Shown: piece by piece, positions 7,335 through 63,143 of the stretch
How the letters are laid out: each line of letters opens with the position of its first letter
How positions within the stretch are numbered: the stretch's first letter is position 1
Program-made: the position numbers and the translations under genes
Notes under the pieces: generated by a model
What the model was told of the DNA's origin: nothing
What the model saw: only the letters and a program-made list of their open reading frames with translations
Databases searched by the model: none
NCBI RefSeq assembly: GCF_044704955.1
Contig: NC_091995.1
Coordinates: forward strand, 11,160,001 to 11,224,000
Direction of reading: 5' to 3'
Origin: Pristiophorus japonicus
Taxonomy: Eukaryota
DNA length: 64,000 nucleotides

Positions 7335-10300
7335 GCTCCCTCCCGCCCCCTAGCCCAGGCCGAGTGGTCTCCCAGTGTGTTGTCCTTCCCCTAGCCCAGG
7401 TCGAATGGCCTCCTGGTGTGTTGTCCCACTCCGAGCCCAGGCCGAGTGGTCTCCCAGTGTGTTGTCCCATTCCTAGCCCAGGCCGAGTGGTCTCCCAGTG
7501 TGTCGTCCCATTCCTAGCCCAGGCCGAGTGGTCTCCCAGTGTGTTGTCCCATTCCTAGCCCAGGCCGAGTGGTCTCCCAGTGTGTTGTCCCATTCCTAGC
7601 CCAGGCTGAGTGGTCTCCCAGTGTGTTGTCCTTCCCCTAGCCCTGGCCGAGTGGCCTCCTGGTGTGTTGTCCCACTCCTAGCCCAGGCCGAGTGGCCTCC
7701 TGGTGTGTTGTCCCACTCCTAGCCCAGGTCGAGTGGCCTCCCAGTGTGTTGTCCCGCCCCTAGCCAAGGCCGAGTGGTCTCCAGGTGTGTTGTCCTGCCC
7801 CTAGCCTAGGCCGAGTGGCCTCCCGGTGTGTTGTCCCACTTCTAGCCCAGGCCTAGTGGTCTCCAGGTGTGTTGTCCCGCCCCTAGCCCAGGCCGAATGG
7901 TCTCCAGGTGTGTTGTCCCGCCCCTAGCCCAGGCCGAGTGGTCTCCCAGTGTGTTGTCCCACTCCTAGCCCAGGCTGAGTGGCCTCCCGGTGTGTTGTCC
8001 CACTCCTAGCCCAGGCCGAGTAGCCTCCCGGTGTGTTGTCCCACTCCTAGCCCAGGCCGAGTGGTCTCCCAGTGTGTTGTCCCACTCCTAGCCCAGGCCG
8101 AGTGGTCTCCAGGTGTGTTGTCCCACTCCTAGCCCAGACCGAGTGGCCTCCCGGTGTGTTGTCCCACTCCTAGCCCAGGCCGAGTGGCCTCCCGGTGTGT
8201 TGTCCCACTCCTAGCCCAGGCCGAGTGGCCTCCCGGTGTGTTGTCCCACTCCTAGCCCAGGCCGGGTGGTCTCCCAGTGTATTGTCCCACTCCTAGCCCA
8301 GGCCGAGTGGCCTCCCGGTGTGTTGTCCCACTCCTAGCCCAGGCCGAGTGGCCTCCCAGTGTGTTGTCCCACCCTTAGCCCAGACCGAGTGGTCTCCCAG
8401 TGTGTTGTCCCACCCTTAGCCCAGACCGAGTGGTCCCCTTCAGGTGTGTTGTCCCACTCCTAGCCCAGGCCGAGTGGTCTCCAGGTGTGTTGTCCCACTC
8501 CTAGCCCAGACCGAGTGGCCTCCCAGTGTGTTGTCCCACCCTTAGCCGAGACCGAGTGGTCTCCTTCAGGTGTGTTGTCCCACTCCTAGCCCAGGCCGAG
8601 TGGCCTCCCGGTGTGTTGTCCCACTCCTAGCCCAGACCGAGTGGTCTCCTTCAGGTGTGTTGTCCCACTCCTAGCCCAGGCCGAGTGGCCTCCCGGTGTG
8701 TTGTCCCACTCCTAGCCCAGGCCGAGTGGTCTCCCAGTGTATTGTCCCACTCCTAGCCCAGGCCGAGTGGCCTCCCGGTGTGTTGTCCCACTCCTAGCCC
8801 AGGCCGAGTGGCCTCCCAGTGTGTTGTCCCACCCTTAGCCCAGACCGAGTGGTCTCCCAGTGTGTTGTCCCACCCTTAGCCCAGACCGAGTGGTCCCCTT
8901 CAGGTGTGTTGTCCCACTCCTAGCCCAGACCGCGTGGCCTCCCGGTGTGTTGTCCCACTCCTAGCCCAGGCCGAGTGGCCTCCCGGTGTGTTGTCCCACT
9001 CCTAGCCCAGGCCGAGTGGTCTCCAGATGTGTTGTCCCACTCCTAGCCCAGGCCGAGTGGCCTCCCGGTGTGTTGTCCCACTCCTAGCCCAGGCCGAGTG
9101 GCCTCCCGGTGTGTTGTCCCACTCCTAGCCCAGGCCGAGTGGTCTCCAGGTGTGTTGTCCCACTCCTAGCCCAGGCCGAGTGGCCTCCCGGTGTGTTGTC
9201 CCACTCCTAGCCTAGGCCGAGTGGCCTCCCGGTGTGTTGTCCCACTCCTAGCCCAGGCCGAGTGGTCTCCAGGTGTGTTGTCCCACTCCTAGCCCAGGCC
9301 GAGTGGCCTCCCGGTGTGTTGTCCCACTCCTAGCCCAGGCCGAGTGGTCTCCAGGTGTGTTGTCCCACTACTAGCCCAGGCCGAGTGGTCTCCCAGTGTG
9401 TTGTCCCACTCCTAGCCCAGGCCGAGTGGCCTCCAGGTGTGTTGTCCCACTCCTAGCCCAGGCCGAGTGGCCTCCAGGTGTGTTGTCCCACTCCTAGCCC
9501 AGGCCGAGTGGCCTCCAGGTGTGTTGTCCCACTCCTAGCCTAGGCCGAGTGGCCTCCCGGTGTGTTGTCCCACTCCTAGCCCAGGCCGAGTGGTCTCCAG
9601 GTGTGTTGTCCCACTCCTAGCCCAGGCCGAGTGGCCTCCCGGTGTGTTGTCCCACTCCTAGCCCAGGCCGAGTGGTCTCCAGGTGTGTTGTCCCACTCCT
9701 AGCCCAGGCCGAGTGGCCTCCAGGTGTGTTGTCCCACTCCTAGCCCAGGCCGAGTGGCCTCCCGGTGTGTTGTCCCACTCCTAGCCTAGGCCGAGTGGCC
9801 TCCCGGTGTGTTGTCCCACCCCTAGCCCAGGCCGAGTGGCCTCCAGGTGTGTTGTCCCACTCCTAGCCCAGGCCGAGTGGCCTCCCGGTGTGTTGTCCCA
9901 CTCCTAGCCTAGGCCGAGTGGCCTCCCGGTGTGTTGTCCCACTCCTAGCCCAGGCCGAGTGGTCTCCAGGTGTGTTGTCCCACTCCTAGCCCAGGCCGAG
10001 TGGCCTCCCGGTGTGTTGTCCCACTCCTAGCCCAGGCCGAGTGGTCTCCAGGTGTGTTGTCCCACTACTAGCCCAGGCCGAGTGGTCTCCCAGTGTGTTG
10101 TCCCACTCCTAGCCCAGGCCGAGTGGCCTCCAGGTGTGTTGTCCCACTCCTAGCCCAGGCCGAGTGGCCTCCAGGTGTGTTGTCCCACTCCTAGCCCAGG
10201 CCGAGTGGCCTCCAGGTGTGTTGTCCCACCCTTAGCCCAGACCGAGTGGTCCCCTTCAGGTGTGTTGTCCCACTCCTAGCCCAGACCGCGTGGCCTCCCG

Positions 10301-11735
10301 GTGTGTTGTCCCACTCCTAGCCCAGGCCGAGTGGCCTCCCGGTGTGTTGTCCCACTCCTAGCCCAGGCCGAGTGGTCTCCAGATGTGTTGTCCCACTCCT
10401 AGCCCAGGCCGAGTGGCCTCCCGGTGTGTTGTCCCACTCCTAGCCCAGGCCGAGTGGCCTCCCGGTGTGTTGTCCCACTCCTAGCCCAGGCCGAGTGGTC
10501 TCCAGGTGTGTTGTCCCACTCCTAGCCCAGGCCGAGTGGCCTCCCGGTGTGTTGTCCCACTCCTAGCCTAGGCCGAGTGGCCTCCCGGTGTGTTGTCCCA
10601 CTCCTAGCCCAGGCCGAGTGGTCTCCAGGTGTGTTGTCCCACTCCTAGCCCAGGCCGAGTGGCCTCCCGGTGTGTTGTCCCACTCCTAGCCCAGGCCGAG
10701 TGGTCTCCAGGTGTGTTGTCCCACTACTAGCCCAGGCCGAGTGGTCTCCCAGTGTGTTGTCCCACTCCTAGCCCAGGCCGAGTGGCCTCCAGGTGTGTTG
10801 TCCCACTCCTAGCCCAGGCCGAGTGGCCTCCAGGTGTGTTGTCCCACTCCTAGCCCAGGCCGAGTGGCCTCCAGGTGTGTTGTCCCACTCCTAGCCTAGG
10901 CCGAGTGGCCTCCCGGTGTGTTGTCCCACTCCTAGCCCAGGCCGAGTGGTCTCCAGGTGTGTTGTCCCACTCCTAGCCCAGGCCGAGTGGCCTCCCGGTG
11001 TGTTGTCCCACTCCTAGCCCAGGCCGAGTGGTCTCCAGGTGTGTTGTCCCACTCCTAGCCCAGGCCGAGTGGCCTCCAGGTGTGTTGTCCCACTCCTAGC
11101 CCAGGCCGAGTGGCCTCCCGGTGTGTTGTCCCACTCCTAGCCTAGGCCGAGTGGCCTCCCGGTGTGTTGTCCCACCCCTAGCCCAGGCCGAGTGGCCTCC
11201 AGGTGTGTTGTCCCACTCCTAGCCCAGGCCGAGTGGCCTCCCGGTGTGTTGTCCCACTCCTAGCCTAGGCCGAGTGGCCTCCCGGTGTGTTGTCCCACTC
11301 CTAGCCCAGGCCGAGTGGTCTCCAGGTGTGTTGTCCCACTCCTAGCCCAGGCCGAGTGGCCTCCCGGTGTGTTGTCCCACTCCTAGCCCAGGCCGAGTGG
11401 TCTCCAGGTGTGTTGTCCCACTACTAGCCCAGGCCGAGTGGTCTCCCAGTGTGTTGTCCCACTCCTAGCCCAGGCCGAGTGGCCTCCAGGTGTGTTGTCC
11501 CACTCCTAGCCCAGGCCGAGTGGCCTCCAGGTGTGTTGTCCCACTCCTAGCCCAGGCCGAGTGGCCTCCAGGTGTGTTGTCCCACTCCTAGCCCAGACCG
11601 AGTGGTCTCCAGGTGTGTTGTCCCACTACTAGCCCAGGCCGAGTGGTCTCCAGGTGTGTTGTCCCACTACTAGCCCAGGCCGAGTGGCCTCCAGGTGTGT
11701 TGTCCCACTCCTAGCCCAGGCTGAGTGGCCTCCCG
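7335..11735. repeat. 41-bp tandem satellite (~107 units; CCCACTCCTAGCCCAGGCCGAGTGGCCTCCCGGTGTGTTGT)
   Basis: Period measured directly (e.g. 8162 to 8203). Confidence 0.97.
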
Positions 11736-13926: not shown

Positions 13927-14339
13927 TCACAAAGCGAATATTCCAAAGAAGCTCTTTCCTTGGGAGGCGTCCACATATCCCACAGACTTCTCACTCACCC
14001 TGGAGAAGATCTGATCTCCTGCTTCAAACTCAAAGACAGCTCCCTGGTAGGAGGTCTTGTACCAGGTTTCTGTGCGTGGACCATATTGGCAGGCGGACTT
14101 GATGGCTTTCAGGAGCAAAGCTTCCTCCGGATAGCTCGGTGAGAACTTGACGAGTTCGTGGCTCAGGAAGATGCTGTTGCCCTGGCAGTCCCCGCTGTAG
14201 AAGACCACCTGGGTGTAGACAAAGTACTGACCGGGGGTCTTGATAATGAATCTGTTGTCCCTGAACTCCACCCTCTCGACGAAGGTGGAGTCTACCAGAT
14301 CCTGCCAAATCACCTTCTCTCCTTTTAAGGTCTTAGATG
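13927..14339 (-). CDS. TNF: TNF copy A exon 4 (TNF homology domain)
   Basis: Acceptor CTCTCAG|CA, ASKTLKGEKVIWQD...FFGIFAL*. Confidence 0.92.
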
Positions 14340-17300: not shown

Positions 17301-19373
17301 ATTACAAATTTGACACCGAGACGCATAAGTAGAAATTAGCGCAGGTGACCAACAGCTTGGTCAAAGAGGTAGGTTTTAAGGAGCGTCTTGAAGGAGGAAA
17401 GAGAGGTAGAGAGGCGGAGAGGTTTAGGCAGATAGTTCCACAGCTTGGGGCCCAGGCAACACCGATGGTTGAGTGATTATAATCAGGGATGCTCAAGAGG
17501 GCAGAATTAGAGGAGCGCAGACATCTCGGGGGAAGGGTTGTGGGAATGGAGGAGAATACAGAGATAGGGAGATGCGAGGCCTTGGAGGGATTTGAAAATA
17601 AGGATAAGAATTTTTAAATCGAGGCGTTGCTGAACCAGAATCCAATGTAGGTCAGAGAGCACAGGGGTGAGGGGTGAGCGGGACTTGGTGTGAGTTAGGA
17701 CATGGGCAGCCAAGTTTTGGATCACCTGTAGTTTACATAGGGTAGAATGTGGGAGGCCGGCCAGGAGCGCATTGGACTTGTCATGTCCAGAGGTAACAAG
17801 GGTGTGGATGAGGGCTTCAGCAGCGGATGAGCTGAGGCAAGGGCGGAGACGGGCAATTTTATGGAGATGGAAGTAGGTGGTCTTAGTTATGCTGCGGATA
17901 TGTGGTTGAAAGCTCATTTCAGGGTCAAATATGACACCAAGGTTATGAACCAAGCTAACTCCGTCCGCCCCATTCTCTCCCCATAGCTTCTGCACCAATT
18001 CCATTTTTTAATTAAGAGATGCAACGGTCTCTATTGCCTGTGGGAAATCATTCCATGCTCCATTGACCAATGGATTACAGAAGTTCTTCGAACCTCTCTC
18101 ACTCAATGTCAATTTTACACTGATGATCCCTCATTTCTGACTTCCCATTTCGGCCTGTGAAAACCCTGCAGAATTTAATGATCTACAACCTCTAAATTAG
18201 CAGCTGACTTGTCCGGAGATGGTTCACCCTCTGATGTGCCCGAGCCTCCCAATGCAGTAGAGCTGGACCTCAGCTTCCCATGTGCCCCACAGTAACGAGA
18301 CTGAGATAGGAAATGCAACCTGTGGCTAGCATTCCAATACACCATGTGACAAGCTGATGTTATCTGTGAGAAAAATCTTCCTTATATTCCTTCATCAGAT
18401 AAGGACTTACATAGGAATAAGAGGAGGCCATTCAGCACGATGAGTCTGTCCCTTCAATTGGATCACGGTTGATCTGTACCTTAACTCCATCCACCAGTCT
18501 TGGTGCCATAACCCTTAATGCACTTGCCTAACAAAACTCTATCAATCTCAGTTTTGACATTTTTAATTGCCCCCACCCCAGCCTCAACAGGGTGGGTGGA
18601 GAGAGGCCCAGATTTCTGTTACCCTTTGTGTGAAGAAGTGCTTCCTGACATCACCCCCTGAACGGCCTGGCTCTCATTTTAAGGTTCTGCCCCCTTGTTC
18701 TGAACTCCGTTCTCCCCTCCACCCCACCCCCCACCTCACCAGAGGAAATAGTTTCTCTCTATCTACCCGATTTGCTTCAGTTCAAATACGTTGACGATTA
18801 TTGGCTAAAATGCACACCTTAGCCAGCAAAATAAATCCTCCATTGATAACTTTTGAAAAGCCCATTAATATTAAGAATAGCCTCTTACCTGTCAGGTGAG
18901 CTGCTATTTTCCCCCTCGGGTCGTTTCCCAACTGCTTCATGAGACGAGGCAGACCTGGAAAAGAAAAGCCGGACTCTCAGTCGCTATCAAGGTGCACATG
19001 GACCGAAAATGACTGATAACGAGAGAGGGAGAGAGAGAGAGAGAGAGATAAAGAGAGATAGAGAGAGAAATGAANNNNNNNNNNNNNNNNNNNNNNNNNN
19101 NNNNNNNNNNNNNNNNNNNNNNNNNNNNNNNNNNNNNNNNNNNNNNNNNNNNNNNNNNNNNNNNNNNNNNNNNNNNNNNNNNNNNNNNNNNNNNNNNNNN
19201 NNNNNNNNNNNNNNNNNNNNNNNNNNNNNNNNNNNNNNNNNNNNNAGAGCGATAGAGAGAGAGACAGAAAGAGAGAGAGAGAAAAAGAGAGAGAGAGCAA
19301 GAGAGATTGTTAGAGAGCTAGAGAGAATTAGAAAGTGATTGATAAAGGGTGAGAGAGCAAGATCGATAGATAG

Positions 19374-19440
<67 letters not shown>

Positions 19441-21809
19441 GAGAATTAGAGAGTGATTGATAGAGAAAGGGGGAGTGAGAGAAATAGATAGATAGATAGA
19501 TGGAATTAGAGAATAATTGATAGAGAAAGGGGAAGAGAAAGATAGATTGATAGAGAGAGCACTCACTTGTGTTAACAGAAACTGTTGTTACAGTTGAATG
19601 ATTCATTAAGTCCTGTGATTGGCTAATCTCTGAGTTCAATGATACTTCCTGAAGAGGAAAGAAATTAAAATGTGAAATTCACCGCAAATTTCCACGTAAC
19701 ACAAGGCGACCCTCTGTACAAGCTTTAAGCCAGATCTACAAGCAGATTATCTGCACCACACAGAGGGCCCAAGTTTCGGCCTCAGTTGCTCCTGATTTTT
19801 TAGAGCAACTGGTGTAGAACGGAGTATCTTAGAAATTCAAATTCTCAGCATTTAGTTTGCTCCAGTTCTAGTCAGTTAGAACAGTTTCACTTTGGAACAG
19901 AATTTTTTTTTCAAAAGGGGGCGTGTCCGGCCACTTAAGCCTGTTTTCAAAGTTTCGGCAGTGAAAACTTACTCCAAACTAACTTAGAATGGAGTAAGTG
20001 AAGATTTTTGTACGTTCGAAAAAACCTTGTCTACACTTTAGAAAATCAGGCGTAGGTTACAAATTAGGCGTAGGGAATGGGGGGGGTTTAAAGGGAAGTT
20101 TACAAACATTAAACACTTCAGTTTTACAAATAAAGAGCCATCATCAATAATAAATGATAAATACATCAATAAATCAACCAATAAATCAATCAAAAAAAAT
20201 TAATAAAAAATATATTTTTTTAAATCAATAAATAAAATATTTTCTACTTACCGACTGCAGCACTGGGAGTCCTCCAACAGCATGCTGGGACGGTCCCCCC
20301 AATGTGTCTCTGTCAGTGTCTCTATCTCTCTATCTGTCTGTGTCTCTCACTCTCTGTCTGTCAGTGTCTGTGTTTCTGACAGCGAGGGGAGGGGCAGAAG
20401 GGTGGGGGAGGGGGAGAAGGGGAGGGTGGGGGAGGGGGAGAAGGGAGGGAGGGAGGGTGGAGGGGGTACAAGGGGGAGAGGGGGAGAAGGAGAGAGGATG
20501 TAGGGCGGGAGGGAAGGGGAGAGGATGTAGGGAGGGAGGGAAGGAGGGAGGGAACGAGGGAGGAGGGAGGGAGGGAGAGACGGAAGCAGAGAGGGAAGGA
20601 GAGGGGGGGAGGGAGGGAAGGAGAGGGAGGGAGGGAAGGGGAGGGAGGGAAGGAGAGGTGGGGGAGGGAGAGAAGGAGGCTGAACGGCCGGGCCCAAGAC
20701 CTCGGGCTAGATTTACAGGTAGGTGGCATCGGGTCTCGGAGGTCCGGAGGAGGAAGGGTGAGAGAGAGTCGCGGAGGTCCGGGGGGGGGGGGCGGAGAGA
20801 GAGAGTCGCGGAGGTCCGGGGGAGAGAGAGAGTCGCGGAGGTCCCGGGGGGGGGGAAGGGAGAGAGTCGCGGAGGTCGGGTCGCCGGTGGGGGGGGGAAG
20901 AGTCGCGGAGGTCGGGTCGCCGGGGGGGGGGGGGGGGCCGGAGGGAAGCGGGAGTCGAGTCGGTGTCGGGAGGAAGCAGGAGCTGGGCGTGGGAGCCTTA
21001 TTCACGCATCCCCAGTGAGGCCATTCAGCCAGGGCGAGGGGTTGCATGCTTCGGGCCCCTCCCACACAGTTTTGGGCGTCTGGAGCTACTGCACACGCGC
21101 GCCCACTGTAGCGTGCATGTGCAGAGGTCCCGGCACTGCTTTCAGCGCAGGGACCTGGCTCCGCCCCCAACAGCTCGTGCTGCGCCGCACCTGGCTGCAG
21201 AAGACCTGCAGGGAGCCGGAGAATCTGGAAGTTTTTTTTAGGCGCACTTTCTGGCGCGAAAAGTGGGCGTCCAGGTCCGGGCTGCGCCGTTATAGGCGCG
21301 TCCCGAAACTTGGGTCCAGAGACACTGGTGCATCCCAGACTCTGACTGACTCACATTATCATGATTGACAGTAGATAAAGAGTTCATCAGATAACCGACA
21401 TCTGTTTTTTTTCCATTGTATCTGTAAATCAAATGTAAATCAAATGCCCCCTTATTAAAGGAGCACTAGCACTGACAGTTTAAACAAATTAAACTTTAAA
21501 CCTTAAACGGTGAAATTAAAATTTGGTTGCCCGGGGTGATGATGCACTCCAGTCCCTCCGGCACCCGACTGCAGTTAGCTAACTCGCACGGAGACAGCTG
21601 AGTAATATCACGCCCTGAACACGGTTACACACCTGGTTTGAAGGTGGAACTCCCAGCTGACAGAGTAACAGGTAGGAAGATACAGCCAGCAAGCCCAGAA
21701 CAGCCACCGCACACAGAGACTGCCAGAAACAGCTCCTCTTGGAGTCTGTCCGCCTGCCGACAGCCTCTCCTCCATTCTCAAGGTCCAGCGGCATCTTCTT
21801 AACACTCAT
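13927..21809 (-). CDS. TNF: TNF-alpha-like ligand, copy A (4 exons: 21809-21633, 19648-19567, 18954-18889, 14339-13927; 245 aa)
   Basis: Exon lengths 177+82+66+413=738 nt, in frame, all introns GT-AG with phases 0,1,1 as in vertebrate TNF. Type II TM segment in exon 1. THD motifs AAHLT, W, GQYFVYTQVVF, KSAC, WYKTSYQGAVFEF, FFGIFAL. Orthology (TNF vs LT) is not phylogenetically tested. Confidence 0.85.
14440..15506 (+). mobile_element. Solo LTR with 5-bp TSD GATGT, carrying two tandem Tx1-like LINE 3' ends (~14490-14945 and ~14958-15268)
   Basis: TG...CA ends, perfect TSD 14435-14439/15507-15511; inserts translate to ...LFHGYVRARASLEMEH...AFRER..., L1/Tx1 ORF2 C-terminus-like. Confidence 0.7.
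15757..16915. mobile_element. DeuSINE (minus) interrupted by a CR1 3' fragment (plus, ~15985-16780)
   Basis: SINE halves rejoin across the CR1; CR1 RT C-terminal ORF 16140-16685 and TTCTATGA tail. Confidence 0.85.
17260..17950 (-). mobile_element. L2-clade LINE 3' fragment
   Basis: NLGVIFD...SFQPHIRSITKTTYFHLHKIARLRP...LQVIQNLAAHVLT...LHW. Confidence 0.8.
18408..18770 (-). mobile_element. CR1 3' fragment
   Basis: CR1 3'UTR in reverse orientation. Confidence 0.65.
18889..18954 (-). CDS. TNF: TNF copy A exon 3
   Basis: Acceptor TTTTCCAG|GT, LPRLMKQLGNDPRGKIAAHLT, donor GTAAGA. Confidence 0.85.
19020..19560. repeat. (GA)n/(GATA)n microsatellite in copy A intron 2, containing assembly gap 19075-19245
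   Basis: Direct inspection; 171 N. Confidence 0.95.
19567..19648 (-). CDS. TNF: TNF copy A exon 2 (stalk)
   Basis: Acceptor CTCTTCAG|GAA, EVSLNSEISQSQDLMNHSTVTTVSVNT, donor GTGAGT; positionally homologous to exon 2 of B and C. Confidence 0.75.
19765..21317. mobile_element. Non-autonomous PIF/Harbinger-type element in copy A intron 1
   Basis: TIRs GGGCCCAAGTTTCGG / CCGAAACTTGGGTCC, 3-bp TSD AGA, empty site present in the B/C introns. Confidence 0.85.
21445..21565 (-). mobile_element. Short Tx1-like 3' end in copy A intron 1
   Basis: Reverse complement of GGAGGGACTGGAGTGCATCATCACCCCGGGCAACCAAATTT, seen also at ~14650 and ~15120. Confidence 0.65.
21633..21809 (-). CDS. TNF: TNF copy A exon 1 (cytoplasmic tail + TM)
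   Basis: ATG at 21809, MSVKKMPLDLENGG...LCAVAVLGLLAVSSYLLLC...PSNQ, donor CAG|GTGTGT. Confidence 0.85.
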
Positions 21810-21899
21810 GGTCTCAGGAGTCAGTTGCGGCTGTGTCAGGAGCAGATGTGTGTCTTATCCCCCAATCCTCTTGCTCTCACTTGTATGTGGGTCTGTGTC

Positions 21900-22130
21900 T
21901 GTATATACCACATGATTCTGGAAGAACCCATGAGTAGGTGTTAGGCAATCGGAAAAGAGAATACCAACCTAGCATTTGGAAAGTGTCGAGCTCCCCCACC
22001 TCCACATACAGGAAGTGAAAGCCCAGCCTCAGATCCCACACTGAATGAACAAGGCCCCCAAAATCTGCACTCTCGCACTTTTTGTATGGCAGGGAAACCC
22101 AGACATTGCAGGCTAGATGATAAACGAAAC
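21900..22130 (-). promoter_or_regulatory. Copy A putative promoter: TATATA (21902-21907), Ets-IRF composite GGAAGTGAAA (22011-22020), kB-like GGGAAACCC (22092-22100)
   Basis: Motif matches upstream of ATG 21809; region not alignable to the B/C promoters. Confidence 0.4.
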
Positions 22131-24248
22131 ACTGCCACTTCAGCAATGTTCTGCTGGCAGACGGTACGGGGGTGTGTGTGGGGTAGAGGCAGAGTCTAAC
22201 AACAGGAGAAAAAGGTGACAGGTCACCGCATGGTTGACAGCGTGTGACCAGATTGTGTGACGAGGCTACGGACCAAGAGCTGGAAAATGGAATCAGGCTG
22301 GATAGCTCTTTGTTGGCCGGCACGTATACGAAAGGCCGAAATGACCTCCTTCTGTGCAGGGCCGGAGGAAGGGCCTGGTGGGCCTGGCAAACTGATCCAA
22401 ATGGGCCGATAGTTATGTTTGCTCATGTTCATTACATTACATATATGATTCTGATTCTGAGTATGAAAATATAGACCAGTATATTCAACAATGAAAGCAT
22501 ATATATCAAATGCATAAATTTAATAATAAATTACTACGGTGGACTTATACTATAATATATTATATATTAACATATATTTTATATATTAAACATACTATAT
22601 AAAAACAGTTAACTAATAGCACAGATAAATAGTAAAGATCTTGGCCCCTAGTTTCACCACGATTATACGCCTTTTTGGGCGTCCAAACGTTTTTTGGCGT
22701 CAAATCCTCAGTTCCCAATTTTCACCAAAGTTTGCACATCGGCGTGGAACATGTGCGCCAGTTTGAAATTTTTTGGAGCAGACACGAGTGAAAACAGGCT
22801 CGGATACTGTTTTTGAGCAATTAGGCGATTTTGGCCGTCCACGATTTTATACAGTGAATGTAAGGAAATCGGCACGGCGCACAAAAGGATACTGGGGCCG
22901 GGCAAAAGAAGACAAAATAAAGTAAAAGTACATGGATTTTTTTTTAGAACAGGGTACTCTGAAAATAACTCAGAAAGTAACTTCTGAGTTTTTGGAGCGA
23001 GACAATTTAATAAAGAAGTTTTTCGGAGGGAGGGAATCTGAAATAATTTTGCTGGGTTAGGGTTTGGGTGGTTCTTTTTGACCCAAATCGCGACTGTCCA
23101 TCCCGACACAATCATTGCTGGCTGGGCTCCAGGCACGGGTCGGGGGAGTGCCGGCTGTGCAGGGTCGCGGGCTCGGCCGGACACCAGCACCAGAGCCCGG
23201 GGAGAATCACTGTAATCAGCATCCGAAACGGAACGTTTTGTGCACAGGCAGGGCAGCAAGCTAGAAATCACCATTTGTCACAGGTGACCCAAGACAGTCA
23301 CTGTACAAACAAACGCACCGCAGATCAGGGCGTAGTCCAATCTAGGGCGTCACCCAGCCTTGTGCAGCATAATGGAGAGGAGAGGTATCGGTGATTTATC
23401 TGCATAATAACAATAATAATGGGTGCAATTTTTAGCATGCCTGAGGTGATAAGGGTGTTGGCCATACATGGCATGCACATGCAGAGGCGACGCATAATTT
23501 GATGCAGATATCGGGGAGACAGTTTGATGGTGAGGAGGCTTTACCCTCAGCGAGTCTATAGGGAGAGGCGCTCATACCTGCAATTAAGTGAGGCAGACTG
23601 CGTTTGCAGGCTGTGATTCAGAAAGGAGGTCATCACGGAGATGTGCCAACTAATCAGGGCAGACATACGGGCAAGAAGTGGAAGGAGGACCGCCCTACGG
23701 GTAGAAGTAAAGGTAACAGCGGCACTTGCCTTCTATGCTACGGGATCATTTCAAGCTTCAACTGGGGACGTATGCTTGATCTCGCAACACGCCACACATT
23801 GCTGCATGCCCCAGGTGACTGCTGCACTGTATGCCAAAAGGGAACAGTTCTTCACTTTCCCTATGACCACGCAGGCAATGAGAGACATGGCTGTGGGGTT
23901 CTCCAGAATTGCTGTCTTCCCCCGGGTACAGGGTGCCATTGACTGTATCCACATCGTCTTCAGAGCACCCTTGCAAGATTCCGAAGTTTACCGCAACAGG
24001 AAAGGGTCCCACTCCCTAAAATGTGCAGCTGGTGTGTGCGACAATCTGCAGCGGATCATGGCAATGGATGACAAATATCCCGGTAGCATCCACGATGCTT
24101 TCACCCGCTGTGAGAGCGTTATATCTGCGATGTTTCAGGAGCTGCCAGAAGGGCAGAGCTGGTTGCTCGGAGACAAAGGTTACGGGCTCGCCACCTGACT
24201 TATGACCCCCCCCCCCCCCCCCCCCTGCCTTCGCAATCCCCGCACTGA

Positions 24249-25019
<771 letters not shown>

Positions 25020-28337: not shown

Positions 28338-30115
28338 TTATAGAATCATAGAATCATAGAAATTTACAGCACAGAAGGAGGTCATTTCGGTCCATCGTGT
28401 CCGTGCCGGCTGACCAAGAGCTATCCAGCCTAATCCCACTTCCCAGCTCTTGTTCGGTAGCCCTGTTATGGCACTTCAAGTGTACATCCAAGTATTTTTA
28501 AATGTGATGAGGATTTCTGTCTCTACCATCCTTTCAGGCAATGGGTTCCCTCTGGGTGAAGAAATTTCCCCTCAAATCTCCTCTAAACATTCTACCAAAT
28601 ACTTTAAAATCTATGCCCCCTGGTTTTGACCTCTCTACTAAGGGAAATAGGTCCTTCTTATCCACTCTATCCAGGCCCCTCTTAATTTTATACACCTCAA
28701 TAAGGTTTTCCCTCAGCCTCCTCTGTTCCAAAGGAAACAAACCCAGCCTATCCAATCTGTCCTCATAGCTTAGATTCTCCACTCCCGACAACATCCTTGT
28801 AAATCTCCTCTGTACCCTCTTTAGTGCAATTACATCGTTCCTGTAATGTGGTGACCAGAACTGCATGCAGTACTTCAACTGTGGCCTAACTAGTGTTTTA
28901 TACAGTTCAAGCATAACCTCCCTGTTCTTGTATTCTATGCCTCGGCTAATAAAGGCAATCATTCCATATGCCTTCTTAACCACCTTATCTACCTGGCCTG
29001 CTACCTTCAGGGATCTGTGGACATGCACTCCAAGGTCCCTTTGTTCATCTACACTTCTCAGCGTCCTACCATTTAATGTGTATTCCCTTTCCTTGTTAGC
29101 TCTCCCCAAATACATTACCTCACACTTCTCCAGACTGAATTTCATTTGCCACTGTTCTGCCCACCTGACCAGTTTATTGATATCTTCCTGCAGTCTACAG
29201 CTTTCTTCTTCATTATCAACCACATGGCTGATTGTAGTATCATCTGCAAACTTCTTAATCATACCCCTTACATTCTAGTCTCGTATTAGTATTAGGCAGT
29301 CTCTCGTATCAAGGATGACTTGCTTCCACACCAAAAAGGGATAAGTTCACAGGTGTTTCAATGAGGGCCCTGACATTCCAGATCCCGAACTACATCCTGA
29401 AGGGTGGAAGATGCCTGTGCATGGATTCTTTCAATGTGGGGTGGCCGTTGCACACCAGCCACCACACGGGCTTGATAGAGCTTGGTCTTGGTTCAGTGGC
29501 AAGGATTAACCAAGATGACTGGAGACCAGCTCTGCTGCATGGACCTAGTGTGCACACATACTCCTACTGTTCATAGATCGCAGTGTGGGCTGGCCCGTGC
29601 TGCCCCTGGGCCCTTGCCTCTTCTAAGCCCCTAGCCCTTGCCTCTCCTGGTCCCTGATCATTCAACGCACCTCCGCCACGATCTCTCGCTGCTCCTCCGC
29701 CCTGACCTCCCCGCTCCTCTGGATCCTGCACATGCTCCAATTGGCGAGCTGGGTTTCAGTGATGTCACCCAGTTGCCCTCCTCAAAGCTGTCACCTTCCT
29801 GGAAAGGCTCTCACTGCCATCACCATTCTAGTCTAGATCATTGATTTATACCACAAAAAGCAAGGGACTAGTACTGAGCCCTGTGGAACCACATTGGAAA
29901 TAGCCTTCCAGTCACAAAAACACCCAGCAACCATTATCCTTTGCTTCATGCCTCTGAGCCAATTTTGGATCCAACTTGCCACTTCAAACTGGATCCCATG
30001 TGCTTTTATTTTCATGACCAGTCTGCCATGTGGGACCTTATTAAAAACCTTGCTAAAATCCATATACACTACATCAAATGCTTTACCCTCATCGATCCTC
30101 CTCCAAAAATTCAAT
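28338..30115 (-). mobile_element. CR1 RT fragment interrupted by a 542-bp insertion (29282-29823)
   Basis: KFADDT RT motif, DFSKVFNKVPH; 11-bp TSD CATTCTAGTCT at 29271-29281 and 29824-29834. Confidence 0.88.
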
Positions 30116-36307: not shown

Positions 36308-36394
36308 TTTATTAATTCCCGTCCATCTGCTCAGCAGTAAATAATCATATAAATAAATAATGTAAATAAATAACATAAATAAATAATATAAATA
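36308..36394 (-). promoter_or_regulatory. Copy B 3'UTR AU-rich element cluster plus AATAAA (36308-36313)
   Basis: About eight overlapping ATTTA pentamers and TTATTTATT nonamers on the minus strand, typical of the TNF class II ARE. Confidence 0.8.
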
Positions 36395-37301: not shown

Positions 37302-37714
37302 TCACAAAGCGAATATTCCAAAGAAGCTCTTTCCTTCGGAGGCGTCCACATATCCCACAGCCTTCTCACTCACCCTGGAGAAGATCTGATCTCCTGCTTC
37401 AAACTCAAAGACAGCTCCCTGGTAGGAGGTCTTGTACCAGGTTTCTGCCCGTGGACCATATGGGCAGGCGGACTTGGTGGCTTTCAGGAGCAAGAATTCC
37501 TCCGGATAACTCGGTGAGAGCTTGGTGAGTTCATGGCTCAGGAAGATGGTGTTACCCTGGCAGTCCCCACTGTAGAAGACCACCTGGGTGTAGACAAAGT
37601 ACTGACCGGGGGTCTTGATGATGAAACGGTTGTCCCTGAACTCCACTCCCTCGACAAAGGTGGAGTCTGCCACATCCTGCCATATCACCTTCTCTCCTTT
37701 TAAGGTTTGTGAAG
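37302..37714 (-). CDS. TNF: TNF copy B exon 4 (THD)
   Basis: Acceptor CCTTCAG|CT, ASQTLKGEKVIWQD...FFGIFAL*. Confidence 0.92.
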
Positions 37715-39838
37715 CTGAAGGAACAGAGAGAGGGAACAACATAAGGATGGAATAAAGAGAAGACTTGCATTTATATAGTGCCTTTCACAACCACAAGACA
37801 TTCCTCAGTGCTTTACAGCGACTGAAGTACTTTTGGAGTGTAGTCACTGTTGTAATGTGGGAATTGCGACACAGCAAGCTCCCACATACAGCAATGTGAT
37901 AATGGCCAGACCATCTGTTTTAGTGATGAAGATTGAGGGATGTATATTGGCCCAGGACTGATTACTATCCAGTGAATCTTGTGCCATGTGAGAACAAGAT
38001 TGGGTTTGGGTCACATGCTTACTGCAATTAAATAGCCCACTGCCACTCTCAGCTCACACATCTAGAATGACCACTTCAGTGAAGCATTGAGCTCTCCTGC
38101 CGCACAGGAAATCATAGAATGATACAGCACAGAAGGAGGCCATTCGGCCCATCATGCCCATGCCGGCTCTTGGGTCGAGCTATCCAATTTCTCCCACTGC
38201 CCCTGCTTTTCCCCCATAGACCTGCAAATGTTTCCCGTGCTACAGTGGGAGTGGCTACCTTCAGGACATGGGGTTATTAATACCATTAAGAATAGCCTCT
38301 TACCTGTCAGGTGAGCTGCGATTTTCCCCCTCGGGTCATTTCCCAACTGCTTCATGAGACGAGGCAGACCTGGAAAAGAAAAGCCAGACTCTCAGTCGCT
38401 ATCGAAATACACATGGATCGAAAATGACATAACGAGAGAGGGAGAGAGAGTGAGAGAGAGAGATTGATAGAGAGAGAGATTGATAGAGTGTGAGATTGAT
38501 AGAGAGTGAGAGACAGATAGAGATAGATAGAGCATGAGATTGATATATAGATAGAGAGGGGGAGAAATCTAGAGAGAGAGATGGAGAAGGAGATTGATAG
38601 AGATATTGATAGAGCGAGAGATTGATAGAGTGAGAGAGATTGATAGAGAGACAGATAATGATGGATTGATAGTGAGATTGATAAAGAGAGATAGGAAGAT
38701 AGTGAGAGAGATGGAGGGAGAGAGATCGATAGAGAGAGAGAGATAGATAGAAATACATAGATAATGAGATTCATAGTGATAGATAGAGTGAGATGCAGAG
38801 AGAGAGACAGAGGCAGTAAGAGAGAGACAGAGAGAAAGGTAGAGAATGATAGCGATTGATTGATATATCGAGTTTGAGAGAGAGTTTGATGGAGAGACCA
38901 TGGGATGTACTGAGGGAGAGATACAGATAAAGAGAGAGTTGTTGATAGAGGTTGATAGGGAGCGATTGATAGAGTGATAGGGATAGATTGTTAGAGACAG
39001 ATGTTGTCAGAGAGAGAGATTGACAGAGAGAGAGAGATTGATAGACACATTGTTAGCGAGACAGATCGGTGGAGGAGATGGACAGAGATTGTCAGAGAGC
39101 ACTCACCACTGTTAACAGCGACTTTTGCCAGAGGCGAATGATTCCCTGAATCCTGTAATCGGGCTGTTTCCTTCAGAAATAGAACAAGGAAAGAGATTAA
39201 AATGTGAAATTCGCCCCAACTTTCCATGAAACACACCGCGACCCTCTGTACAAAGGTTCAGGCCGGATCTGCCGGCAGCTTATGTGCATTACACATAGAC
39301 ACAGGGCGACCCAGACCCTGACTGACTCTCACACTCCGGACTGACAGCAGACAGAGGCTTTGTCAGACAGTGAACTGCTGCTCACTAACTCGCTGGGCTG
39401 AAGCTGGATAAAATGCAGCATTGGTGACTGAGTCGCTGCATCTCTCCGATATAGAGCCGCCGAGATGTGGACAGCAGCAAAAGGCAACACCAGGATTGAC
39501 TGGGTGAACACAGATTGTGGCTTCACAGGAGGCGGAGCAGCTCAGGCAAACACTGCCATAACCCCACAGCTTCACAGCACACTTGGAGAAGCCTCTCCCA
39601 GGGCTGAGAGCAGCCGAGAAAAGGCAACAAGAGACCACTTGCTCTGGCGTTTCCAACGTACCTTGTTTGAAGGTAGAACTCCCAGCTGACAGAGTAACAG
39701 GTAGGAAGATACAGCCAGCAAGCCCAGAACAGCCACCGCACACAGAGACTGCCAGAAACAGCTCCTCTTGGAGTCTGCCCGCCAACCGACAGCCTCTCCT
39801 CCATTCTCAAGGTCCAGCGGCATCTTCTCAACACTCAT
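37302..39838 (-). CDS. TNF: TNF-alpha-like ligand, copy B (exons 39838-39662, 39170-39107, 38369-38304, 37714-37302; 239 aa)
   Basis: 177+64+66+413=720 nt in frame, GT-AG introns, TM + stalk + THD; ARE in 3'UTR, NF-kB and TATA in promoter. Confidence 0.88.
37761..37960 (-). mobile_element. DeuSINE 3' part in copy B intron 3 (same position in copy C, ~60950-61150)
   Basis: Same SINE motifs at the same intron position in B and C. Confidence 0.75.
38304..38369 (-). CDS. TNF: TNF copy B exon 3
   Basis: LPRLMKQLGNDPRGKIAAHLT with AG/GT boundaries. Confidence 0.85.
38430..39100. repeat. GA/GATA low-complexity repeat, copy B intron 2
   Basis: Direct inspection. Confidence 0.9.
39107..39170 (-). 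CDS. TNF: TNF copy B exon 2
   Basis: Acceptor TTCTGAAG|GAA, ETARLQDSGNHSPLAKVAVNS, donor GTGAGT. Confidence 0.78.
39662..39838 (-). CDS. TNF: TNF copy B exon 1
   Basis: MSVEKMPLDLENGG...PSNK, donor AAG|GTACGT. Confidence 0.85.
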
Positions 39839-39940
39839 GGTCTCAGGAGTCAGTTGTGGCTGTGTCAGGAGCAGATGTGTGTCTCCTCTCTCTCAGCTCT
39901 CTGAGTGCTTTGTGTGTCTGCTGTAGCTCCACACCAGCTC

Positions 39941-40150
39941 TATATAAAGATCAGCCCAGCACCACCGGAACTCTGATGTAATGGGGCAGGAAATCCCCAA
40001 AACCAAGCGATTGGAAGAAAGACACAAGTTTTCCTGAGCCGAAAGTAGCAATGATGTGAGGCTGCAACTCCCGAACTTTCACTGTGTCCGTTTTCCAAAG
40101 TTCAACTAAAACGTTAAACTAAACCAAAAGTGAACACGAAACTCCGCCCC
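39941..40150 (-). promoter_or_regulatory. Copy B proximal promoter: TATA-like (39941-39948), NF-kB site GGGGATTTCC (39989-39998), NFAT-like TGGAAAA (~40091), GC box (40144-40149)
   Basis: Motifs read directly, about 100-310 bp upstream of the ATG, and conserved in copy C. Confidence 0.7.
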
Positions 40151-40255
40151 ATCTAAATGTATTTTCACTGTACTTAAACATGAATGAAAGGAAACAAGCA
40201 GGAAGCTTGTAAAGAGATTAAAAACCAAGGAAACACTAAAGAACTGTTATGTCTA

Positions 40256-40766
40256 GAAACATAGAAACATAGAAAATAGGTGCAGGAGTAGGCCATTCGG
40301 TCCTTCGAGCCTGCACCACCATTCAATAAGATCATGGCTGATCATTCCCTCAGTACACTTTTCCTGCTTTCTCTCCATACCCCTTGATCCCTTTAGCCGT
40401 AAGGGCCATATCTAACTCTCTTAAATATATCGAACGAACTGTCATCAACAACTCTCTGTGGTAGAGAATTCCACAGGTTAACAACTCTCTGAGTGAAGAA
40501 GTGTATCCTCATCTCGGTCCCTTATGCTTAGTCTGTGTCCCCTGGTTCTGGACTTCCCCAACATCGGGAACATTCTTCCTGCATCTAACCTGTCCAGTCC
40601 CGTCAGAATTTTACATGTTTCTATGAGATCCCCTCTCATTCTTCTAAACTCCAGTGAATACAGACCCAGTTGATCCAGTCTTTCTTCATATTTCAGTCCT
40701 GCCATCCCTGGAATCAGTCTGGTGAACGTTCACTGCACTCCCTCAATAGCAAGAATGTTCTTCCTT
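40256..40766 (-). mobile_element. CR1 3' fragment immediately upstream of the copy B promoter
   Basis: (GAAACATA)n tail, RT C-terminus. Confidence 0.9.
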
Positions 40767-41299
40767 CTACAGTGCCTTTCGCCGCCTTCTGTTGTCTCAA
40801 AGCACTTTATAGTCAATGAATATGTTTTGAAGTGTAGTCACTGTTGTTATGTAGAAAACGGGCCAACAATTTGCGCACAGCAAGATCCCAGAAACAGCAA
40901 TGCGATACATGAGCAGATTATCTGTTTTGGTGATTTGGGTTGAGGGATCAATATTGATAGGCCACAGGTTGACCAATGTTGAGTAAGCACTTTTTCACAC
41001 AAAGATTATTGGAGCTCTGGAACTCACATCCCCCAAGAGGCTGTGGATCCTGGAGGAAAATTGGAGCTTTCAAGACTGAATTGGATGTCTTTTTATTGGG
41101 TTAGAGTGTCAAGCGATATGGAGAAAAAGCATCTAAATGGAGTTGAGATACAGATCAGCCATGATCTAACTGAATGACAGAACTGTCTCGACGGGCTAAA
41201 TAGCCTCCTCCTGTTCCTGTGTTCTCGGTGATCTTCACCAGGCAGTGTTATTCTACATCTAACCCGTGTTACACCTGACCTGGGACACTGCTGACTTTT

Positions 41300-59519: not shown

Positions 59520-59620
59520 TTTATTTATTCCCGTCCATCAGCTCAGCAGTAAATAATCATATAAATAAATAACATAAATAAATAATATAAATACATCAAA
59601 TAATAAATATATTTAAATAA
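59520..59620 (-). promoter_or_regulatory. Copy C 3'UTR AU-rich element cluster plus AATAAA (59520-59529)
   Basis: Overlapping ATTTA repeats homologous to copy B. Confidence 0.8.
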
Positions 59621-60491: not shown

Positions 60492-60904
60492 TCACAAAGC
60501 GAATATTCCAAAGAAGCTCTTTCCTTGGGAGGCGTCCACATATCCCACAGCCTTCTCACTCACCCTGGAGAAGATCTGATCTCCCGCATCAAACTCAAAG
60601 ACAGCTCCCTGGTAGGAGGTCTTGTACCAGGTTTCTGCGCGTGGACCATATTGGCAGGCGGACTTGGTGGCTTTCAGGAGCAAGAATTCCTTCGGATAGC
60701 TCGGTGAGAGCTTGGTGAGTTCATGGCTCAGGAAGATGCTGTTGCCCTGGCAGTCCCCGCTATAGAAGACCACCTGGGTGTAGACAAAGTACTGACCGGG
60801 GGTCTTGATGATGAAACGGTTGTCCCTGAACTCCAGCCCCTCGACAAAGGTGGAATCTGCCTCATCCTGCCAAATCACCTTCTCTCCTTTTAAGGTTTGT
60901 GAAG
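60492..60904 (-). CDS. TNF: TNF copy C exon 4 (THD)
   Basis: ASQTLKGEKVIWQDEADS...FFGIFAL*. Confidence 0.92.
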
Positions 60905-63041
60905 CTGAAGGAAAAGAGAGAGGAAACAACATAAGGATGGAATAAAGAGAAGAATTGCATTTATATAACGTCTTTCACAACCACAAGTAATTCCTCAGTG
61001 CTTCACAGCCAATGAAGTACTTTTGGAGTGTCGCCACAGTTGTAACGTGGGATTTGCGACACAGCAAGCTCCCACATACAGCAATGTGATAATGGCCAGA
61101 CCATCTGTTTTAGTGACAATGATTGAGGGATGTATATTGGCCAGGACTGATTACTATCCAGTGAATCTTGTGCCATGTGAGAACAAGATTGGGTTTGGGG
61201 CATATACTCACTGCAATTAAATAGCCCACTGCCACTCTCAGCTCACACATCTAGAATGACCACTTCAGTGAAGCATTGAGCTCTCCTGCCACAGGGGAAA
61301 TCATAGAATGATACAGCACAGAAGGAGGCCATTTGGCCCATCATGCCAGTGCCGGGTCTTGGGTCGAGCTATCCAATTTCTCCCACTGCCCCTGCTTTTC
61401 CTCCACAGACCTGCAAATGTTTCCTGTGCTACAGTGGGAGTGGCTACCTTCAGGGCACAGAGTTATTAATACCGTTAAGAATAGCCTCTTACCTGTCAGG
61501 TGAGCTGCCATTTTCCCCCTCGGGTCGTTACCCAACTGCTTCATCAGACGAGGCAGACCTGGAAAAGAAAAGCCGGACTCTCAGTTGCTATCGGGATATA
61601 CATGGACCGAAAATGACTGATAACGGGAGAGAGAGAGAGAGGGAGAGAGAGAGAGATTGAAAGAGAGAGAGATTGATAGAGAGTGAGAGACAGATAGAGA
61701 TAGATAGAGAGACAGTGAGATCAATATATAGAGAGGGGGAGAAATCTAGAGAGAGAGAGATGAAGAGGGGTATTGATAGGGAGATTGATAGAGAGAGAGA
61801 TTGATAGAGTGAGAGAGATTGAGAGTGAAAGAGAGATAATGATGGATAGATAGTGTGATTGATAGAGAGATTGAAAGATAGTGAGAGAGATGGAGAGAGA
61901 GAGATCGATAGAGACAGACAGAAATACATAGATAATGAGATTCATAGTGACAGATGGAGAGAGTGAGATAGAGAGAGAGACAGAGGTAGAGAGGTAGAGC
62001 GAGAGAAAGGGAGATAATGATAGAGATTGATAGATATATAGAGTTTGAGAGAGAGGATGATGGAGAGACCATGAGATGTACTGAGGGAGAGATACAGAGA
62101 AAGAGAGAGATGGTGATAGAGGGTGATAGGGAGCGATTGATAGAGAGAGAGATCGGGATAGATTGATAGAGACAGATGTTGTTAGAGAGAGAGATTAATA
62201 CAGAGATTGATAGTGAGAGAGAGATTGACAGAGAGAGAGGTTGATAGACACATTGTTAGCGAGAGAGATCGGTGGAGGAGATGGACAGAGATTGTCAGAG
62301 AGCACTCACCACTGTTAACAGCGACTTTTGCCAGAGGCGAATGATTCCCTGAATCCTGTAATCGGGCTGTTTCCTTCAGAAATAAAACAAGGAAAGAGAT
62401 TAAAATGTGAAATTCGCCCCAACTTTCCATGAAACACACCGCGACCCTCTGTACAAAGGTTCAGGCCGGATCTGCCGGCAGCTTATGTGCATTACACAGA
62501 GACACAGGGCGACCCAGACCCTGACTGACTCTCACACTCCGGACTGACAGCAGACAGAGGCTTTGTCAGACAGTGAACTGCTGCTCACTAACTCGCTGGG
62601 CTAAAGCTGGATAAAATGCAGCATTGGTGACTGAGTCGCTGCATCTCTCCGATATAGAGCCGCCGAGATGTGGACAGCAGCAAAAGGCAACACCTGGATT
62701 GACTGGGTGAACACAGATTGTGGCTTCACAGGAGGCGGAGCAGCTCAGGCAAACACTGCCATAACCCCACAGCTTCACAGCACACTTGGAGAAGCCTCTC
62801 CCAGGGCTGAGAGCAGTCGAGTAAAGGCAACAAGAGACCACTTGCTCTGGCGTTTCCAACATACCTGGTTTGAAGGTAGAACTCCCAGCTGACAGAGTAA
62901 CAGGTAGGAAGATACAGCCAGCAAGCCCAGAACAGCCACCGCACACAGAGACTGCCAGAAACAGTTCCTCTTGGAGTCTGCCCGCCTGCCGACAGCCTCT
63001 CCTCCATTCTCAAGGTCCAGCGGCATCTTCTCAACACTCAT
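60492..63041 (-). CDS. TNF: TNF-alpha-like ligand, copy C (exons 63041-62865, 62373-62310, 61558-61493, 60904-60492; 239 aa)
   Basis: Same exon sizes as copy B, intact frame, GT-AG introns; 7 aa differences from B in exon 4. Confidence 0.88.
61493..61558 (-). CDS. TNF: TNF copy C exon 3
   Basis: LPRLMKQLGNDPRGKMAAHLT, AG/GT boundaries. Confidence 0.85.
61625..62300. repeat. GA/GATA low-complexity repeat, copy C intron 2
   Basis: Direct inspection. Confidence 0.9.
62310..62373 (-). CDS. TNF: TNF copy C exon 2
   Basis: ETARLQDSGNHSPLAKVAVNS, AG/GT boundaries. Confidence 0.78.
62865..63041 (-). CDS. TNF: TNF copy C exon 1
   Basis: MSVEKMPLDLENGG...PSNQ, donor CAG|GTATGT. Confidence 0.85.
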
Positions 63042-63143
63042 GGTCTCAGGGGTCAGTCGCGGCTGTGTCAGGAGCAGATGTGTATCTCCTCTCTCTCAGC
63101 TCTCTGAGTGCTTTGTGTGTCTGCTGTAGCTCCACACCAGCTC

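What the first reader, a model, noticed from the sequence alone, without database searches (positions are those of the whole stretch)
19567..19648. Copy A exon 2 has lost the putative ADAM17 cleavage motif and gained a glycosylatable Ser/Thr stalk
Seen: exon 2 of B/C encodes ...NHSPLAKVAVNS-G, strikingly like human TNF ...ISPLAQA|VRSS, the established TACE/ADAM17 site (Ala76-Val77). Copy A has an exon 18 nt longer encoding ...NHSTVTTVSVNT-S. It has no Ala-Val, is Ser/Thr-rich, and has two N-X-S sequons (NHS, and NTS across the exon 2/3 junction). In B/C the single NHS is followed by Pro. Exon 2 is by far the most diverged coding exon. Inference: A is shedding-resistant, membrane-retained TNF, functionally LT-beta-like or TNFR2-biased.
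Basis: partly seen in the sequence, partly recalled or inferred. Interest (0 to 1): 0.8.

Follow-up and report, generated by a model that had tools for sequence, protein, structure and literature searches.

The report
Ancient two-type stalks in shark TNF
The odd stalk of this sawshark TNF copy is not a local loss of a cutting site: it is one of two old stalk types found across sharks, which stay distinct while the rest of the gene is kept nearly identical between copies, and it may tune how much of the cytokine is released from cells.

Summary
The sequence facts are right. Copy A is a Pristiophorus japonicus TNF-like gene (245/245). The "lost/gained" story is not supported. A's 27-codon exon 2 is a long stalk type shared with Heterodontus, Carcharodon, Scyliorhinus, Hemiscyllium and Heptranchias; 8 of 10 long stalks carry the first sequon. 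B/C belong to a short type found in several of the same galeomorph sharks, also Ser/Thr-rich. Ala-Val occurs in 3 of 15 short stalks (all sawshark) and 5 of 10 long ones. Only the second sequon (NTS) is A-specific. Exons 1/3/4 group by species, exon 2 by type, which points to gene conversion that spares the stalk exon. Anchored on the TNF domain, human Val77 maps to Met92 in shared exon 3, though that bond lies far from the membrane. B/C have an AU-rich cluster and a kB-like site; A has neither. Best reading: an old glycosylated long-stalk paralog with reduced, not abolished, shedding. Shedding is untested; LT-beta likeness is unsupported.

The parts
19567..19648 (-). Copy A exon 2, long stalk type (82 nt, phase 0 to 1)
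   Evidence: used by database model P0001; closest stalk is Heterodontus P0008, 17/28
19595..19603 (-). A first sequon N75-H-S(-T); conserved column of the long type
   Evidence: 8 of 10 long stalks have N-x-S here
19567..19573 (-). A second sequon N85-T-S, completed by exon 3; A-specific
   Evidence: 1 of 10 long stalks
21633..21809 (-). Copy A exon 1, coding part (cytoplasmic tail and transmembrane helix); homogenised with B/C
   Evidence: 0 synonymous differences to C in 44.5 sites; helix 26-51 in a low-confidence model
18889..18954 (-). Copy A exon 3 (LPRLMKQLG...AAHLT); holds the bond positionally equal to human Ala76-Val77 (L91-M92, 18943-18938)
   Evidence: 22/22 identical to B
13927..14339 (-). 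Copy A exon 4, coding part, TNF homology domain
   Evidence: PF00229, 102 bits
39662..39838 (-). Copy B exon 1, coding part
39107..39170 (-). Copy B exon 2, short stalk type (64 nt) with SPLAKVAVNS
   Evidence: closest other-species stalk is Heterodontus short P0021, 11/19
38304..38369 (-). Copy B exon 3
37302..37714 (-). Copy B exon 4, coding part
62865..63041 (-). Copy C exon 1, coding part
62310..62373 (-). Copy C exon 2, short type, identical to B
61493..61558 (-). Copy C exon 3
60492..60904 (-). Copy C exon 4, coding part
39989..39998 (-). kB-like site 160 nt before B's ATG, about 50 nt above a TATA box (same in C at 63193-63202; none in 950 nt above A)
   Evidence: the motif is not enriched in the window (20 found vs 32 expected), so only its position is suggestive
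36350..36386 (-). AU-rich (UUAUUUAUUUA) cluster in B's presumed 3' UTR (C: 59562-59585); absent from A
   Evidence: 5 matches in the window, all in B and C, 0.03 expected

Best explanation
A and B/C are members of two old paralog lineages of the tandem shark TNFSF1/2 cluster: a long-stalk lineage with an N-glycan sequon, and a short-stalk lineage without a good one. Shown by sequence: the two exon-2 types cross species, while exons 1, 3 and 4 group by species. Inferred: repeated gene conversion keeps the tail, membrane helix and TNF domain alike within a species and spares exon 2, probably because selection keeps two stalks. Inferred mechanism: the long stalk places an N-glycan four residues before the conserved x|Val bond (T78|V79 in A), adds Ser/Thr that could carry O-glycans, and moves the shared exon-3 bonds 6 residues further from the membrane. 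ADAM17-type shedding of A is then slower or smaller than for B/C, but not abolished. B/C behave as the inducible, short-lived-mRNA, readily shed form; A as a differently regulated, more membrane-held form of nearly the same ligand.
For: On a gap-free 19-residue block that excludes the length difference, the nearest other-species stalk was of the same type for 19 of 19 sequences. The exon-2 tree needs 1 change of the long label (84/84; 0 of 500 shuffles as low) and rejects a Heterodontus long+short clade (p-AU 0.00175). The exon 1+3+4 tree needs 8 changes, groups the four sawshark rows at 100/100 and the Heterodontus pair at 100/98, and rejects A + Heterodontus long (p-AU 0.0002). The Heterodontus pair shows 57/59, 10/21 and 132/134 identity in exons 1, 2 and 4, like A/B at 54/59, 9/22 and 123/136. 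Exon 1 of A vs C has no synonymous difference in 44.5 sites while the next 100 intron bases align no better than shuffles. Sequon without a following Pro: 6 of 10 long, 0 of 15 short. AU-rich cluster only in B/C. Literature passages: O-glycan at Ser80 partly protects TNF from ADAM17 (PMC12228884); N-glycan at Asn86 lowers mouse TNF expression and secretion (PMC13580271); distance from the membrane limits ADAM17 (PMC4858764; about a 30-residue window, bioRxiv 2020.05.09.086264).
Against: No shedding, glycan or cDNA data. The exon-2 tree has only 20 columns, the long clade is not starred, and a clade of the four sawshark stalks was not rejected (p-AU 0.131). The AU test for a long clade on exons 1+3+4 gave p 0.115 despite a 425 log-likelihood drop and 0 of 200 bootstrap trees. 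Exon 2 has dN 0.37 and dS 0.43 on only 19 codons, compatible with relaxed constraint. Two of 10 long stalks lack the sequon and 2 more have Pro after it. A still has Val/Leu bonds at 10, 12, 22 and 28 residues from the helix end. Homologues are gene-model proteins; I saw no DNA of other sharks. Near-copies make the counts non-independent.
Confidence: 0.6

Rival explanations
1. The stalk types are old but functionally equivalent. All copies are cut in shared exon 3 (around S/G|L-P-R|L|M-K). Exon 2 escaped conversion only because it is short, differs in length and sits beside a simple repeat.
For: Ungapped from the TNF domain, human mature residue 6 aligns with N97 of A, so Val77 maps to M92 in exon 3. 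Leu-Met at that place is kept in 30 of 39 sequences. Teleost TNF has a predicted TL site (PMC7003395, one passage); that TL lies at the matching place is recalled, not tested. Chicken TNF lacks the exact Ala-Val site (PMC5913325). Exon-2 dN is about equal to dS.
Against: The exon-3 bonds lie 31-38 residues from the helix end in B and 37-44 in A, at or past the reported 30-residue window. Exon 3 is as short as exon 2 yet is homogenised, and the 100 bases above exon 2 are more alike (75 of 89 aligned) than exon 2 itself. The sequon tracks the long type.
Confidence: 0.27
2. One reading: copy A specifically lost an ancestral Ala-Val ADAM17 site and became a shedding-resistant, LT-beta-like or TNFR2-biased ligand.
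For: The B/C motif match is above shuffles (5-9 of 2000). By exon position, human Ala76-Val77 also falls at the end of exon 2 (human exon sizes recalled). A has the highest Ser/Thr share and a unique second sequon. Membrane TNF favours TNFR2 in mammals (PMC8196896, PMC13580271).
Against: Ala-Val is absent from all 12 non-sawshark short stalks and present in 5 of 10 long ones. A's stalk type is shared with galeomorph sharks. Non-cleavable mouse TNF alleles are named as deletions 1-9 with K11E, or 1-12 (PMC8196896); in mature numbering (recalled) these residues map to shared exon 3. LT-beta scores 26 bits vs 82 for TNF.
Confidence: 0.1
3. The copies arose by separate recent duplications in each shark, and similar long and short stalks evolved in parallel.
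For: Exons 1+3+4 group by species; Marin 2020 (PMC7674686, section 7) reads the cluster as independent tandem duplications.
Against: It needs repeated convergence in length and sequence: A and Heterodontus long share 17 of 28 residues, and 19 of 19 nearest neighbours match by type.
Confidence: 0.03

Closest known systems
Shark tandem TNFSF1/2 cluster (Marin 2020, PMC7674686; eight genes in Rhincodon, six in tandem)
   Same: Tandem TNF/LT-alpha-like genes, equally related to TNF and LT-alpha; database names 'tumor necrosis factor-like' and 'lymphotoxin alpha-c1 to c4'.
   Different: In the passages and section 7 that I read, the paper does not treat stalks, shedding or exon-level conversion. 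Its supplements were not opened.
Mammalian TNF (TNFSF2), ADAM17 cleavage at Ala76-Val77
   Same: Type II membrane precursor, four exons, TNF domain (82 bits); B/C carry SPLA-x-x-AV, a kB-like site and AU-rich elements.
   Different: Longer stalk (47-53 residues from helix end to the first strand); no RSSSR; cut site unknown; one-to-one orthology not assignable.
Glycan-tuned shedding: TNF Ser80 O-glycan, mouse TNF Asn86 N-glycan, CADM1 stalk exons (PMC12228884, PMC13580271, PMC5385562)
   Same: A small stalk exon and nearby glycans set susceptibility to shedding.
   Different: Here the alternatives would be fixed in paralogous genes rather than set by splicing or enzyme levels; untested.
Lymphotoxin-beta (TNFSF3)
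   Same: Membrane-anchored TNF-family ligand in the mammalian TNF cluster.
   Different: Weak sequence match (26 bits); Marin 2020 places its origin after the ray-finned/lobe-finned split; no sign of a distinct receptor-binding domain in A.

Membership tests
TNFSF1/2 (TNF/LT-alpha) group | C-terminal TNF homology domain | tested here: met
   PF00229 at 99-102 bits in all three copies, cut-off 23
TNFSF1/2 (TNF/LT-alpha) group | Closest solved relatives are TNF and LT-alpha | tested here: met
   TNF 82, LT-alpha 72, FasL 64 bits
TNFSF1/2 (TNF/LT-alpha) group | Type II topology with one transmembrane helix | tested here: met
   Hydrophobic run in exon 1; helix 26-51 in a model of mean pLDDT 54
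TNFSF1/2 (TNF/LT-alpha) group | Synteny with MHC-region genes | not testable with these tools
   Pfam hits in 8 of 10 other long ORFs scanned, nearly all transposon-type; no shark contig collection on hand
ADAM17-shed TNF | Val/Leu at P1' within about 30 residues of the membrane | tested here: met
   A has bonds at 10, 12, 22, 28; B at 13, 22, 25, 27. Met by both, so it does not separate them
ADAM17-shed TNF | Conserved Ala-Val site | tested here: not met
   3 of 15 short and 5 of 10 long stalks
ADAM17-shed TNF | Measured inhibitor-sensitive release | not testable with these tools
   Needs cell assays
Lymphotoxin-beta (TNFSF3) | LT-beta-type domain sequence | tested here: not met
   26 bits vs 82 for TNF; 123/136 identical to copy B
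Lymphotoxin-beta (TNFSF3) | Never shed; heterotrimer with LT-alpha; binds LT-beta receptor | not testable with these tools
   Feature partly recalled, partly PMC4929537 passage; no complex prediction was run

The most novel reading that the evidence does not exclude
Sharks split the membrane-versus-soluble TNF choice between genes. Gene conversion keeps one shared ligand domain, while selection has kept two stalk exons since before the main shark split: a glycan-shielded, weakly shed, non-ARE form (A type) and an NF-kB/ARE-controlled, freely shed form (B/C type). Mixed trimers of near-identical domains could then set the shed fraction. This would parallel the mammalian TNF/LT division of labour without a separate LT-beta gene.
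Probability: 0.25. Interest if true: 0.75.

Novelty: new variant of a known kind. Interest (0 to 1): 0.45.

Why it matters
Sharks are the oldest living group with adaptive immunity and, per Marin 2020, lack a clear LT-beta. How they divide membrane and soluble TNF signals is open. Paralogs that are about 90% identical in the ligand domain but carry old, distinct stalk exons give a natural swap experiment on what controls ADAM17 shedding. The result also warns that whole-protein trees of shark TNF genes mistake old paralogs for recent species-specific duplicates. As a claim about one sawshark copy losing a human-like motif, the finding is ordinary and mostly wrong.

Tried and rejected
1) Cluster membership look-up could not be made, so whether C has a database model with exon 2 stays unchecked. 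2) AlphaFold2 on an 18-row alignment gave mean pLDDT 54, with residues 53-128 under 50; used only for the helix end, and no fold search was run on it. 3) A profile search for bony-vertebrate stalks returned one such protein of 70 (axolotl), too little to test whether SPL is homologous to human SPL; left open. 4) Exon 3 alone against PDB: 0 hits. 5) A search for stray exon-2 copies in the window found none. 6) A sawshark-specific acceptor shift as the cause of the 18 nt was considered and dropped, because both lengths exist in other sharks. 7) The kB motif is not enriched in the window. 8) The AU test for the all-long clade on exons 1+3+4 did not reject (p 0.115), at odds with its likelihood gap; I rely on the two-row test and bootstraps. 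9) Scripts 34, 35 and 64 stopped on errors and were rerun. 10) Ten literature searches listed no paper on shark TNF stalks, shedding or conversion; most subscription journals are not covered. No complex prediction and no representative-library search were run; no shark DNA or read collection was available.

Full report
The locus. Self-comparison and translation show three four-exon TNF-family genes on the minus strand, A (21809-13927), B (39838-37302) and C (63041-60492), all with GT-AG introns and open frames of 245, 239 and 239 residues. All three exon 4 products match PF00229. A is identical to P0001, a Pristiophorus japonicus 'tumor necrosis factor-like' protein (245/245). The sawshark has further copies outside the window (P0002, P0020, P0014, P0045). 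Tandem TNFSF1/2 clusters are known in sharks (PMC7674686, passages and section 7).

The observation. Exon 2 cannot be skipped without a frameshift. The database model matching B (P0003) skips it by reading into introns, while P0001 and P0002 use it. I take P0003 as a modelling error, but no cDNA was seen. The likeness of B/C to the human motif beats 2000 shuffles at 5-9 hits, a post hoc test; Carcharodon c3 scores alike through SPLA alone.

Polarity. Of 62 sequences (60 hits plus B and C) I kept 39 full-length, plausibly modelled ones for alignment and dropped 23 partial or mis-modelled ones. A's exon 2 is closest to Heterodontus P0008 (17/28), then to Scyliorhinus, Carcharodon and Heptranchias stalks of the same length, all scoring above its neighbours B/C. 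B/C are closest to Heterodontus P0021 (11/19). For 19 sequences of this subfamily with long (27-28 residue) or short (21-22 residue) exon 2, the nearest other-species stalk on a gap-free 19-residue block was of the same type in 19 of 19. Two still shorter shark stalks (P0023, P0026), the rays and the distant paralogs were left out of that test, and near-copies are not independent. Pristiophorus is a squalomorph and Heterodontus a galeomorph, so both types predate that split. In a census picked by eye that included partial models (10 long, 15 short), the first sequon is in 8 of 10 long stalks (6 without a following Pro) and 2 of 15 short ones (both NHSP, copies B and C). Ala-Val is in 5 of 10 long stalks and 3 of 15 short ones, all three from sawshark. 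Ser/Thr counts in the block are 2-8 for long and 2-7 for short; B/C (3) are at the low end and A (8) at the top. Only the second sequon is unique to A. So A did not lose a motif that its orthologues have, and KVAV looks like a sawshark-lineage feature of the short type. No other squalomorph short stalk was found, so it cannot be dated further. Distant paralogs and rays have shorter stalks, so the long type may itself be derived at the base of sharks; that is inference.

Concerted evolution. A tree of exons 1+3+4 (23 rows, 217 columns) groups copies by species: four sawshark rows at 100/100 and the Heterodontus long and short pair at 100/98. It needs 8 changes of the long label and rejects A + Heterodontus long (p-AU 0.0002). 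The test of all eight long rows gave p 0.115 in spite of a 425-unit likelihood loss. The exon-2 tree (19 rows, 20 columns) needs one change (84/84, not starred), rejects the Heterodontus pair (p 0.00175) and does not reject a sawshark clade (p 0.131). In the window, A and C differ at no synonymous site of exon 1 (44.5 sites) while the following intron aligns no better than shuffles. dS of A vs B/C is 0.13-0.21 in exons 3-4 and 0.43 in exon 2, where dN is 0.37. Similarity between A and B/C comes in sharp blocks around exons 1, 3 and 4. Gene conversion that spares exon 2 is the simplest reading. Whether selection or mere loss of homology spares it is not settled.

Where is the cut? ADAM17 has no clear consensus and is limited by distance from the membrane (PMC4858764, passages; PMC5385562, passages). 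It prefers Val/Leu at P1' and cuts within about 30 residues (bioRxiv 2020.05.09.086264, passages; supplements closed). A keeps Val/Leu bonds at 10, 12, 22 and 28 residues; the one at 28 (T78|V79) is the column where other long stalks have A|V and short stalks mostly P/S|L, four residues after the sequon. Fish TNFs have a predicted TL site (PMC4929537, PMC7003395; passages), and chicken TNF lacks the exact site (PMC5913325). Glycans dampen TNF release rather than block it: Ser80 O-glycan (Goth 2015, seen only through PMC12228884) and mouse Asn86 N-glycan (Murakami 2024, seen only through PMC13580271). A graded effect is therefore the better bet.

Regulatory shell. B and C have a kB-like site about 50 nt above a TATA box and a dense AU-rich cluster about 900 nt past the stop. 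A has a different upstream region, no consensus kB site in 950 nt and no such cluster (5 matches of TTATTTATTTA in the window, all in B/C, 0.03 expected). The motif labels are recalled knowledge. This supports a division of labour between A and B/C but says nothing direct about shedding.

LT-beta or TNFR2 bias. A's domain is 123/136 identical to B, has 8 residues not seen in four other sawshark copies, and matches LT-beta at 26 bits against 82 for TNF. It is not an LT-beta. TNFR2 bias would follow only if A is membrane-held and shark receptors behave like mammalian ones (PMC8196896, passages); neither is shown. PMC6001812 (passages) had nothing on shark TNF.

Verdict. Observation confirmed; interpretation partly supported. 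The real feature is a trans-species pair of stalk exons inside otherwise homogenised shark TNF paralogs. Ten searches of an open-licence library listed no description of it; the database names c1-c4 suggest someone has catalogued the Carcharodon cluster in a source I could not find. New variant of a known kind; interest 0.45.

Noticed in passing
window 21810-22760 vs 39839-40790 and 63042-63990; 3' regions below 13927, 37302, 60492: A shares only about 46 nt of 5' UTR and about 135 nt of 3' UTR with B/C; beyond that its promoter and 3' UTR differ and lack the kB-like site and AU-rich cluster.
   Followed up: partly
P0020 (outside the window) vs window 21632-21585: A further sawshark copy has a model that reads into an intron 1 matching A's, yet lacks A's unique domain residues: a probable second A-type gene or a mosaic.
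   Followed up: partly
P0002 (outside the window): A short-type sawshark copy has YHSP instead of NHSP, so no stalk sequon at all.
   Followed up: yes
P0003, window 39661-39602 and 38388-38370: The database model for copy B skips exon 2 by extending exons 1 and 3 into introns; several other shark models look mis-built at this exon too.
   Followed up: partly
window 19766-21316: About 1.5 kb insertion in A's intron 1 (1984 nt vs 491 in B/C); A's intron 3 is also much longer (4549 vs about 589 nt).
   Followed up: no
window 19075-19245: A 171-base assembly gap in A's intron 2, inside a GA/GATA simple repeat; an extra small exon there cannot be excluded.
   Followed up: no
window 19627-19628: A possible in-frame GAG acceptor 21 nt into A's exon 2 would give a 61-nt exon of short-type length that keeps both sequons; GAG acceptors are rare (read).
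   Followed up: no
window 7349-11735: Tandem array of a 41-bp GC-rich unit, about 107 copies, 93% matches.
   Followed up: no
window 3036-4706; 24199-24864; 28534-29274; 42521-43138; 49629-52897: Transposon remnants: an LTR-type RT/RNase H/integrase frame, a DDE_Tnp_4 piece, and LINE-type RT, endonuclease and esterase-like pieces.
   Followed up: partly
P0005/P0007 (Carcharodon), P0004/P0010 (Scyliorhinus): These long-type pairs share identical or near-identical exon 2 but differ more in exons 3-4, so conversion does reach exon 2 within a type.
   Followed up: partly
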